A stretch of DNA of 64,000 nucleotides from the NCBI RefSeq assembly GCF_963921235.1, contig NC_086097.1, positions 11,594,001 to 11,658,000 of the forward strand, written 5' to 3'. Within the stretch, counting starts at the first letter, position 1. Each line of letters begins with the position of its first letter. A program made the position numbers and the translations under genes. This stretch comes from Mobula hypostoma. Taxonomy: Eukaryota. Shown piece after piece: positions 61,684 through 62,163 of the stretch. The notes below the pieces were generated by a model. That model was not told the origin of the DNA and did no database searches. It worked only from the letters and a program-made list of their open reading frames with translations.

Positions 61684-62163
61684 TCCTCCAACCTGATGGC
61701 ATGAACATTGACTTCTCAAACTTCCGCTAATGCCCCACCTCCCCCTCGTACCCTATCCGTTATTTGTTTATATACACACATTCTTTCTTTCTCTCTCCTT
61801 TTTCTCCCTCTGTCCCTCTGACTATACCCCTTGCCCATCCTCTGGGTTTTCCCCCCATCCCCCTTTTCCTTCTCCCTGGGCCTCCTGTCCCATGATCCTC
61901 TCATATCCCTTTTGCCAATCACCTGTCCAGCTCTTGGCTCCATCCCTCCCCCTCCTGTCTTCTCCTATCATTTTGGATCTCCCCCTCCCCCTCCCACTTT
62001 CAAATCTCTTACTAGCTCTTCCTTCAGTTAGTCCTGACGAAGGGTCTCGGCCCGAAACGTCGACTGTACCTCTTCCTAGAGATGCTGCCTGGCCTGCTGC
62101 GTTCACCAGCAACTTTGATGTGTGTTGCTTGAATTTCCAGCATCTGCAGAATTCCTGTTGTTC
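61684..62163 (+). mobile_element. Penelope-like element 3' end, closely similar to 4170-4612
   Basis: LQPDGMNIDFSNFR* followed by the same pyrimidine-rich 3' region and hammerhead. Confidence 0.9.
62030..62065 (+). ncRNA. Minimal type I hammerhead ribozyme motif, core intact
   Basis: Stem I AGTC/GACT; CTGACGA; extra A; stem II GGG-TCTCGG-CCC; GAAA; CGTC, with predicted cleavage after C62061. Confidence 0.85.

What the first reader, a model, noticed from the sequence alone, without database searches (positions are those of the whole stretch)
62030..62065. Core-intact minimal hammerhead ribozyme in a Penelope-like terminus
Seen: AGTC-CTGACGA-A-GGG-TCTCGG-CCC-GAAA-CGTC-GACT, which has all hammerhead core positions, a GUC cleavage triplet, one extra A before stem II, and stem III reduced to the palindrome ACGU. 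Established: Penelope-like elements carry minimal type I hammerheads that are thought to work as dimers through a palindromic stem III. Inference: this copy may still self-cleave, in trans or as a dimer. It is antisense to the putative host gene.
Basis: partly seen in the sequence, partly recalled or inferred. Interest (0 to 1): 0.75.

Follow-up and report, generated by a model that had tools for sequence, protein, structure and literature searches.

The report
Ordinary Penelope-element hammerhead in a ray
The 36 bases are a complete minimal hammerhead-ribozyme motif at the tail of a truncated Penelope-like jumping gene, an already described and very abundant kind in what is likely a ray genome; it would likely cut only as a protein-assisted pair, and this lone copy is likely inert.

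Summary
62030-62065 (+) carries every hammerhead core base, stems I and II, the extra A and the ACGU palindrome. A descriptor found 2 hits in the window and none in 200 shuffles. The motif lies in the 3' pseudo-LTR of a 478-bp, 5'-truncated Penelope-like element (61685-62162). A sister copy, 92% identical, carries a GIY-YIG endonuclease with the Neptune/Nematis-type linker and has ray homologues. The layout is the published minimal hammerhead: 29 of 56 published examples read the same GAAA-C-G-U-H. Of 11 copies in the window, 9 have broken cores. An untouched 36-mer is expected by chance in roughly a third of copies this young, so intactness shows no selection. Covariation did not exceed shuffles. 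Folding predicts an inactive hairpin, and the nearest core-intact partner is 57 kb away. Published relatives are inactive as monomers, weak as dimers, and in one lizard element need the element's protein. No host gene could be identified, so 'antisense' is unverified. This scan has reported the same family many times elsewhere in this genome. New member of a known kind; low interest. One untested lead: stem I overlaps a splice-acceptor-like site, as in Drosophila Penelope.

The parts
61685..62162 (+). 5'-truncated Penelope-like element copy (ORF end, 3' pseudo-LTR and tail); no target-site duplication found
   Evidence: 92% identical over 451 columns to the copy at 4171-4612; summed contig depth jumps from 18-40 in the flanks to millions inside; only a 5-nt match away from the junctions in the TSD search
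61686..61730 (+). last 14 codons and stop of the RT/GIY-YIG ORF (LQPDGMNIDFSNFR)
   Evidence: translation; the same C-terminus ends ray proteins such as P0002 and P0004
61731..62029 (+). pyrimidine-rich pseudo-LTR tract between the stop codon and the hammerhead
   Evidence: sequence; alignment to the sister copy
62010..62031 (+). splice-acceptor-like signal directly 5' of and overlapping stem I: branch-like heptamer at 62010-16 (TACTAAC in the sister copy), pyrimidine tract, CAG 62025-27, TAG 62029-31; use in splicing is inferred, not shown
   Evidence: crude scores 3.3 and 2.3 here; 6.5 and 4.1 at the stem I AG in two older copies; one predicted gene model compatible with the CAG (P0024)
62030..62065 (+). 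minimal type I hammerhead motif: stem I 62030-33/62062-65, CUGACGA 62034-40, extra A 62041, stem II 62042-45/62050-53, GAAA 62054-57, palindrome ACGU 62057-60, C17 62061
62066..62135 (+). pseudo-LTR segment 3' of the hammerhead, conserved across subfamilies; the sister copy ends at the position matching 62135
62136..62162 (+). 27-nt extension, likely the optional 'tail' of Penelope-like insertions
   Evidence: absent from the copy at 4171-4612, present in other copies, and found inverted at 55715-55740; tail described
3661..4612 (+). sister copy of the same young subfamily, with linker CX4CxxC, GIY-YIG domain (two Cys between GIY and YIG; broken by a stop and a frame change at about 4108) and a hammerhead at 4507-4542 (core intact, two CpG changes in stems II and III)
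   Evidence: (GIY-YIG E=0.0012, below the curated cut-off)
55715..55838 (+). older-subfamily relic starting exactly at the 5' edge of stem I (55741; G12 mutated), preceded by an inverted tail
7243..7910 (-). older-subfamily relic: GIY-YIG remnant followed by a hammerhead with G8 mutated
30541..31197 (-). older-subfamily relic: GIY-YIG remnant followed by a hammerhead lacking its 5' half

Best explanation
The 36 bases are the intact minimal type I hammerhead motif in the 3' pseudo-LTR of a 5'-truncated Penelope-like retrotransposon copy (likely Neptune/Nematis type, likely in a ray), which would cleave only as a double hammerhead, likely with help from the element's protein, and this solitary copy is likely an inert, neutrally ageing relic. 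Shown: the motif, its place about 300 nt after the ORF stop, its link to a GIY-YIG ORF, the family's abundance, and decay of the other copies. Inferred mechanism for the family: in tandem transcripts of active elements, two motifs pair through ACGU/ACGU to build a shared 4-bp stem III, each cutting after C17 (here C62061) and trimming the precursor RNA. Inferred for this locus: with no neighbouring partner and no known sense transcript, the RNA would fold into a hairpin in which core GACG pairs with CGUC, and it would not cut.
For: Motif real and not chance. Sister copy with GIY-YIG and CX4CxxC linker; best homologues Mobula hypostoma 86% and Hypanus sabinus 82%. A homologue carries RT plus GIY-YIG (P0005). 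Two older copies also put the motif behind GIY-YIG remnants. It matches all sequence features of the published min-HHR, and 29 of 56 examples read GAAA-C-G-U-H (my hand count; PMC4209133). 9 of 11 window copies have a broken core. Divergence inside equals outside, and P(36 nt unchanged) is about 0.34. Stem covariation is not above shuffles: 1 of 8 pairs with a two-sided change, reached by 264 of 500 shuffles. The active double hammerhead is -14.7 kcal/mol against -23.8 for two inactive hairpins and -32.1 for the best dimer. The dimer-ready open state has P of about 0.001 in two contexts that keep all of stem I. Published monomer inactive and dimers weak. The Anolis element's hammerhead needs the protein, is dispensable for insertion in vitro, and showed no reads ending at its cut site (PMC11167929).
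Against: No cleavage assay was possible. Nearest-neighbour energies ignore core tertiary contacts, Mg2+ and protein help, so they understate the active fold. The neutrality test rests on two copies and has little power. This copy keeps all 5 CpGs inside the motif (1 of 10 CpG sites lost over the compared stretch, against 3 of 10 in the sister). At family level the motif is conserved: across contigs, alignments break off just before 62030 and just after 62067, and identity of other window copies is 0.75 in the motif against 0.40 upstream and 0.58 just downstream (the further downstream segments are 0.70-0.72). This points to a real function in active elements. Lünse et al. are cited as showing that such motifs cleave as dimers (seen only second-hand).
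Confidence: 0.85

Rival explanations
1. This copy is a working ribozyme. It is transcribed in sense, pairs in trans with one of the very many family motifs on other RNAs (possibly chaperoned by protein from active elements) and cuts its host transcript.
For: All core positions, both stems and the palindrome are perfect. The family is enormously abundant, and family sequence is present in a run guessed to be RNA, so partners would exist. The hammerhead of a lizard element is switched on by the element's protein.
Against: A 4-bp intermolecular helix is predicted at only -1.7 kcal/mol. Inactive folds dominate. The only other core-intact motif in the window is 57.5 kb away, with a wobble-weakened palindrome (active dimer -5.2 kcal/mol). 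No sign of selection.
Confidence: 0.07
2. The motif is conserved in the family mainly for a non-catalytic role: it marks the 3' splice site of a pseudo-LTR intron and/or a structure at which reverse transcription stops or switches, with cleavage incidental.
For: The first two bases of stem I are an acceptor-like AG behind a pyrimidine tract and a branch-like heptamer. The D. virilis intron ends at the 5' end of helix I. 5' ends of copies fall at 62030-34, not at the cut site: the copy at 55741, and 8 of the 15 joints shown land at 62030-34, none at 62062 (1303 more not shown). Catalytic mutants do not affect insertion in vitro.
Against: The catalytic core itself (CUGANGA, GAAA, UH) and the palindrome are what is kept across phyla, and a splice site would not require that. 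Acceptor scores in the young subfamily are modest. No donor was found in 61685-62030. No spliced joint is among those shown.
Confidence: 0.15
3. The copy has been domesticated by the host as a conserved intronic ribozyme, like the RECK-type hammerheads of amniotes.
For: Perfect motif. A contig of a second organism reaches 26 nt into the element from the same unique flank (12 differences in 663 nt), a hint that the insertion is shared, though short of the tool's 31-letter bridging rule.
Against: No stable stem III; folds into an inactive hairpin. Divergence in the motif equals that of the rest of the element. No host gene found.
Confidence: 0.02

Closest known systems
Minimal hammerheads (min-HHR) in the pseudo-LTRs of metazoan Penelope-like elements (Cervera and De la Pena 2014, PMC4209133; main text parts 1-2 of 4 and supplement parts 1-2 of 3 read)
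   Same: Type I layout, CUGANGA plus one extra base, G10.1-C11.1 pair, no loop 3, palindromic 15.2-16.2, short stem I, position 3' of the endonuclease ORF, mostly single motifs on truncated copies. Their Ixodes scapularis (1) row has the same core and the same C-G-U-C.
   Different: Their 56-row alignment and Table S1 list no cartilaginous fish. Stem II here (4 bp) is at the short end, as their consensus has a larger helix II. Their cleavage tests used Schistosoma, Drosophila and fungal motifs, not this one.
Neptune/Nematis clades of endonuclease-bearing Penelope-like elements (Craig et al. 2021, PMC8557442; passages read)
   Same: C-terminal GIY-YIG with two cysteines between GIY and YIG, CX2-5CxxC linker, 5' truncation, inverted 5' partner, optional tail, hammerhead in the pseudo-LTR.
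   Different: Only fragments are in the window; no RT-based tree was built, so Neptune versus Nematis is not resolved. The tail here is 27 nt against the quoted 30-40 bp.
Poseidon element of Anolis carolinensis, PAc (Frangieh et al. 2024, PMC11167929; parts 1-2 of 4 read)
   Same: Hammerhead in the pseudo-LTR; two 3' end points that define a tail.
   Different: A different clade (Penelope/Poseidon lack the linker finger). PAc's ORF starts at stem II. The flagged copy has ACG where older copies have ATG in the core, and no N-terminal ORF similarity to relatives was found.
Drosophila virilis Penelope hammerhead overlapping the pseudo-LTR intron end (PMC4209133; PMC2377424 passages read)
   Same: An acceptor-like signal coincides with the 5' strand of stem I.
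   Different: In Drosophila the 75-bp intron is shown to be spliced. Here it is only a sequence resemblance plus one compatible predicted gene model.
Non-LTR retrozymes (bioRxiv 10.64898/2026.07.22.740005; part 1 of 5 and passages read)
   Same: Type I hammerhead derived from Penelope-like pseudo-LTRs; reported in the one chondrichthyan sampled.
   Different: Retrozymes are tandem repeats with a motif in each unit. This copy is solitary and retains the ORF end.

Membership tests
Minimal hammerhead (min-HHR) of Penelope-like elements | Core CUGANGA ... GAAA ... UH | tested here: met
   62034-40, 62054-57, 62060-61
Minimal hammerhead (min-HHR) of Penelope-like elements | [quoted passage not shown] | tested here: met
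   A62041; G62042-C62053
Minimal hammerhead (min-HHR) of Penelope-like elements | Palindromic 15.2-16.2 with no stable stem III as a monomer | tested here: met
   ACGU at 62057-60; the nested double-hammerhead structure could be evaluated
Minimal hammerhead (min-HHR) of Penelope-like elements | Stems I and II closable (type I topology) | tested here: met
   4 bp each; pair probabilities 0.66-1.0 in the 36-mer, but 0.01-0.37 in longer contexts
Minimal hammerhead (min-HHR) of Penelope-like elements | Located in the pseudo-LTR of a Penelope-like element | tested here: met
   about 300 nt after the ORF stop, same strand; same arrangement in three other copies with GIY-YIG remnants
Minimal hammerhead (min-HHR) of Penelope-like elements | Compensatory changes in the stems within the genome's families | tested here: inconclusive
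   11 window copies: 81% of cells paired, 1 of 8 pairs with a two-sided change, not above shuffles; too few copies, and no genome held
Minimal hammerhead (min-HHR) of Penelope-like elements | Self-cleavage as a dimer | not testable with these tools
   needs an in vitro assay; only contigs, no raw RNA reads, were listed
Canonical hammerheads as modelled in Rfam | Match to an Rfam hammerhead covariance model | tested here: not met
   no hammerhead hit at E up to 10 in 59000-64000 or 61950-62200, and none at gathering score in the window
Endonuclease-bearing Penelope-like element | C-terminal GIY-YIG endonuclease with cysteines between GIY and YIG | tested here: met
   in the sister copy: VIYCVRCSRCGLLYIG, Pfam GIY-YIG E=0.0012, below cut-off; the flagged copy holds only the last 14 codons
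Endonuclease-bearing Penelope-like element | Reverse transcriptase N-terminal to the endonuclease in one ORF | tested here: inconclusive
   not present in these truncated copies; present in homologue P0005 (68% identical to the sister fragment) and in full-length relatives
Neptune/Nematis clades | CX2-5CxxC linker finger before GIY-YIG | tested here: met
   CKRNKCYTC in the sister copy; definition
Neptune/Nematis clades | Placement in an RT phylogeny with reference elements | not tested
   no labelled reference sequences were at hand
Non-LTR retrozymes | At least two tandem units, each with a hammerhead | tested here: not met
   single motif; the nearest relic is 6.2 kb away with a dead core

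The most novel reading that the evidence does not exclude
In this ray Penelope family the hammerhead's stem I doubles as the 3' splice site of a pseudo-LTR intron, so splicing gates ribozyme folding. Intact dispersed copies such as this one, present in very large numbers, pair in trans with the help of the element's protein and cut or re-splice host transcripts across the genome.
Probability: 0.07. Interest if true: 0.55.

Novelty: new member of a known kind. Interest (0 to 1): 0.12.

Why it matters
As it stands, little: it adds a ray family to a motif class described in 2014 across 40 animal species. The one useful angle is scale. A young, very abundant family with a perfect motif is good material for the open question of what Penelope hammerheads do in vivo (cut the precursor, mark a splice site, or nothing). 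That question concerns the family and its active elements, not this truncated copy.

Tried and rejected
Rfam scans found no hammerhead. I take this as a model limit (my recall: Rfam's hammerhead models include a stem III), not as evidence against the motif. No whole genome is held, so no genome-wide count or covariation was possible. A degenerate motif pattern gave 0 matches in metagenome, viral and prokaryotic contigs. Host gene: three runs of a crude exon finder (splice frequencies approximate and recalled). Pfam on 142 of 161 unmasked reading frames gave 5 weak hits below cut-off, one of them a transposase. Pfam on 19 candidate exons gave 1 chance-level hit. PDB searches of 3 candidates gave 0. 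The Atlas search of 1 candidate scored 0.76. The representative search of the same candidate returned one TPR protein at E=6.5e-5 with no other matching exons in the window, rejected as chance. No RNA holder listed. The run guessed to be RNA gave no cover on most unique-flank bins, and all four runs were contigs, which cannot show ends, strand or level. No empty-site joint was among the 15 joints shown (1303 not shown). The third organism's contig ends at 61659, before the junction, so it is uninformative. No target-site duplication. No similarity between frames around the motif and the N-termini of 97 full-length relatives (best E=1.4), so an ORF start inside the motif is neither shown nor excluded. 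One search used wrongly placed columns and was replaced. The paper of Lünse et al. (PMC5785218) is not held. Not-in-print searches: Penelope-like + hammerhead + shark gave 1 paper whose only 'shark' is the shape simile. Penelope + stingray + genome + retrotransposon gave 0. Penelope + elasmobranch + transposable elements gave 4, listing only. Neptune + Penelope-like + intron + pLTR gave 5, 4 listed. Repeat databases, subscription papers, the Lünse supplements and the closed supplements of the 2026 preprint may already hold this family.

Full report
Observation. The sequence at 62030-62065 (+) is exactly as quoted. Stem I is 62030-33/62062-65, the core CUGACGA is 62034-40, the extra A is 62041, GAAA is 62054-57, and C-G-U-C follows at 62058-61. 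The cut would fall after C62061. Stem II folds as 4 bp with a U-G pair and a 4-nt loop rather than 3 bp. A descriptor requiring core, stems I and II and a pairing 15.2/16.2 found 2 hits in the window (this one and 4507, both +; none on the minus strand) and 0 in 200 dinucleotide shuffles. The folding energy itself is unremarkable (z -0.96), and Rfam reports no hammerhead.

What carries it. The motif lies in a 478-bp insertion, 61685-62162. It begins with the last 14 codons and stop of an ORF, runs through a 300-nt pyrimidine-rich tract, the motif and 70 further nt, and ends with a 27-nt extension. It is 92% identical over 451 columns to 4171-4612. That sister copy extends 5' to about 3661 and encodes a CX4CxxC linker and a GIY-YIG domain with two cysteines between GIY and YIG (Pfam E=0.0012, below cut-off). 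Its 23 homologues are led by Mobula hypostoma (86%) and Hypanus sabinus (82%) predicted proteins, so the window likely comes from a ray. A whale shark homologue carries RT plus GIY-YIG, and 97 longer relatives were found, most annotated with the RT family. By the passages of Craig et al. 2021 (PMC8557442), the linker finger marks Neptune and Nematis and is absent from Penelope/Poseidon; I built no tree. Two older relics also place the motif behind GIY-YIG remnants. The relic at 55741 has an inverted tail at its 5' side, a described Penelope feature.

Abundance and decay. nhmmer found 11 copies above its inclusion threshold, of 17 listed; 5 lie on + and 6 on -. In their alignment only the flagged copy is perfect. 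The copy at 4507 keeps the core but has CpG transitions at C11.1 and C15.2. The other 9 of 11 have a mutated or deleted core. Laying four public contig sets on 60900-63000 placed 240,755 contigs in the best DNA run, with summed depth 15.4 million at 62036-62106 against 18-40 in unique flank bins. The tool warns this is no copy number, but the family is clearly very large, also in two other organisms. Among the best-supported loose ends shown, many lie before 62030 (858 contigs in X1) and behind 62067 (614), so subfamilies share the motif while differing beside it. A contig of the second organism follows the unique 5' flank with 12 differences in 663 nt and runs 26 nt into the element: a hint of a shared insertion, short of the tool's 31-letter rule.

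Is this copy special? Against its sister it differs at 2 of 36 positions inside the motif and 24 of 406 outside (Fisher p=1.0). At about 3% change per copy, an untouched 36-mer is expected in about 0.34 of copies (two copies only, CpG effects not modelled, so rough). Stem pairs in the 11 copies are 81% paired, with 1 of 8 pairs showing a two-sided change, reached by 264 of 500 shuffles. That shows no covariation, but the sample is small. Against my reading: the copy keeps all 5 CpGs of the motif, and family-level conservation implies a function in active elements.

How it would work. Stem III cannot close in one strand. In a double hammerhead, two ACGU palindromes pair and stem I forms between strands. 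That structure is predicted at -14.7 kcal/mol for the 36-mer, against -23.8 for two separate hairpins and -32.1 for the best dimer. The monomer's best fold pairs core GACG with CGUC. C at position 7 makes this 4.0 kcal/mol better than the open form, against 2.2 with the U of older copies. The dimer-ready open state has a probability near 0.001, and upstream pyrimidines compete for stem II in longer contexts. These energies ignore tertiary contacts, Mg2+ and proteins. Experiments point the same way. Cervera and De la Pena found no monomer cleavage and low dimer and trimer cleavage for a Schistosoma motif (PMC4209133). Frangieh et al. found that the Anolis hammerhead cleaves only with the element's protein, that catalytic mutants still insert in vitro, and that no RNA-seq reads began or ended at the cut site (PMC11167929). 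Lünse et al. are cited for dimer cleavage; I saw only citing passages (not held). The only other core-intact motif in the window is 57.5 kb away and weakened. I therefore judge this copy likely inert.

Host gene. I could not identify one, and only contigs were available, so the antisense remark is unverified. If true, it removes the motif from the host RNA.

Comparison with what is known. All four hallmarks named by Cervera and De la Pena apply, apart from within-genome covariation, which I could not show. By my hand count, 29 of 56 rows of their Figure S3 read GAAA-C-G-U-H (the GAAA column is detached in the PDF text). Neither that figure nor Table S1 lists a cartilaginous fish. A 2026 preprint reports Penelope-derived retrozymes in the one chondrichthyan it sampled (its supplements are closed). 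Four searches found no paper on ray Penelope hammerheads. Within this scan, 92 notes on this genome fit a look-up for the same family; they are AI notes and were used as leads only.

A side lead. The first two bases of stem I, and a CAG four bases upstream, follow a pyrimidine tract and a branch-like heptamer (perfect TACTAAC in the sister copy). Crude acceptor scores are 3.3 and 2.3 here, and 6.5 and 4.1 in two older copies; 2.6% of 8,839 AG sites reach 4. In D. virilis the pseudo-LTR intron ends at helix I. Of 3 proteins found with the motif's reading frame, 1 (P0024) joins unrelated sequence at the point expected for the CAG; the other 2 do not. No donor was found in this copy's tract, and no spliced joint was among those shown. 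It remains a hypothesis.

Verdict. Correct observation, known kind, ordinary copy. New member of a known kind; interest 0.12.

Noticed in passing
window 55715-55838: A relic starts exactly at the 5' edge of stem I and is preceded directly by an inverted copy of the element's tail. In one search, 8 of the 15 joints shown land at 62030-34 and none at the cut site.
   Followed up: partly
window 62010-62031 and 4487-4508: Branch-like heptamer, pyrimidine tract and tandem CAG/TAG acceptor-like sites overlapping stem I. Predicted model P0024 (Mobula birostris) is compatible with use of the CAG, and P0003 joins the ORF end to other sequence at the stop codon.
   Followed up: partly
window 60900-61071 (table 5): At other loci, in three DNA runs, the 3' end of a different high-copy repeat is joined directly to the hammerhead's 5' edge (62030-34) or to the tail start (62132-33). 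This suggests Penelope scraps often insert at that repeat's AT-rich end; it could also be chance adjacency of two abundant repeats.
   Followed up: no
window 61681-62177 (table 2): In the run guessed to be RNA, summed depth relative to the DNA run is 3-5 times higher from 62036 onward than over the pyrimidine tract. The tool warns that contig depth cannot rank parts of a sequence, so this is only a prompt to look at raw reads.
   Followed up: no
window 62038: The young subfamily has C at core position 7, where older copies have T. This removes the ATG within the core and strengthens the predicted inactive hairpin by 1.8 kcal/mol.
   Followed up: partly
window 46594-52738 (-): Long LINE-like reading frames: an 849-aa frame with endonuclease- and RT-like motifs, a 203-aa frame with an esterase-like GDS motif, and 320- and 332-aa RT-like frames (labels by eye, recalled).
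   Followed up: no
window 17443-17531 (+): The strongest exon-like signal in the window (89 nt, strong acceptor and donor). Its one open frame matched nothing in Pfam or PDB; it may be a non-coding exon, which would put a transcript on the + strand.
   Followed up: partly
window 6396-6665 (-), 37786-38313 (+), 44435-44956 (+), 63354-63442 (+): Tc1/mariner-like transposase remnants (Pfam transposase hit for the first; the others by eye).
   Followed up: no
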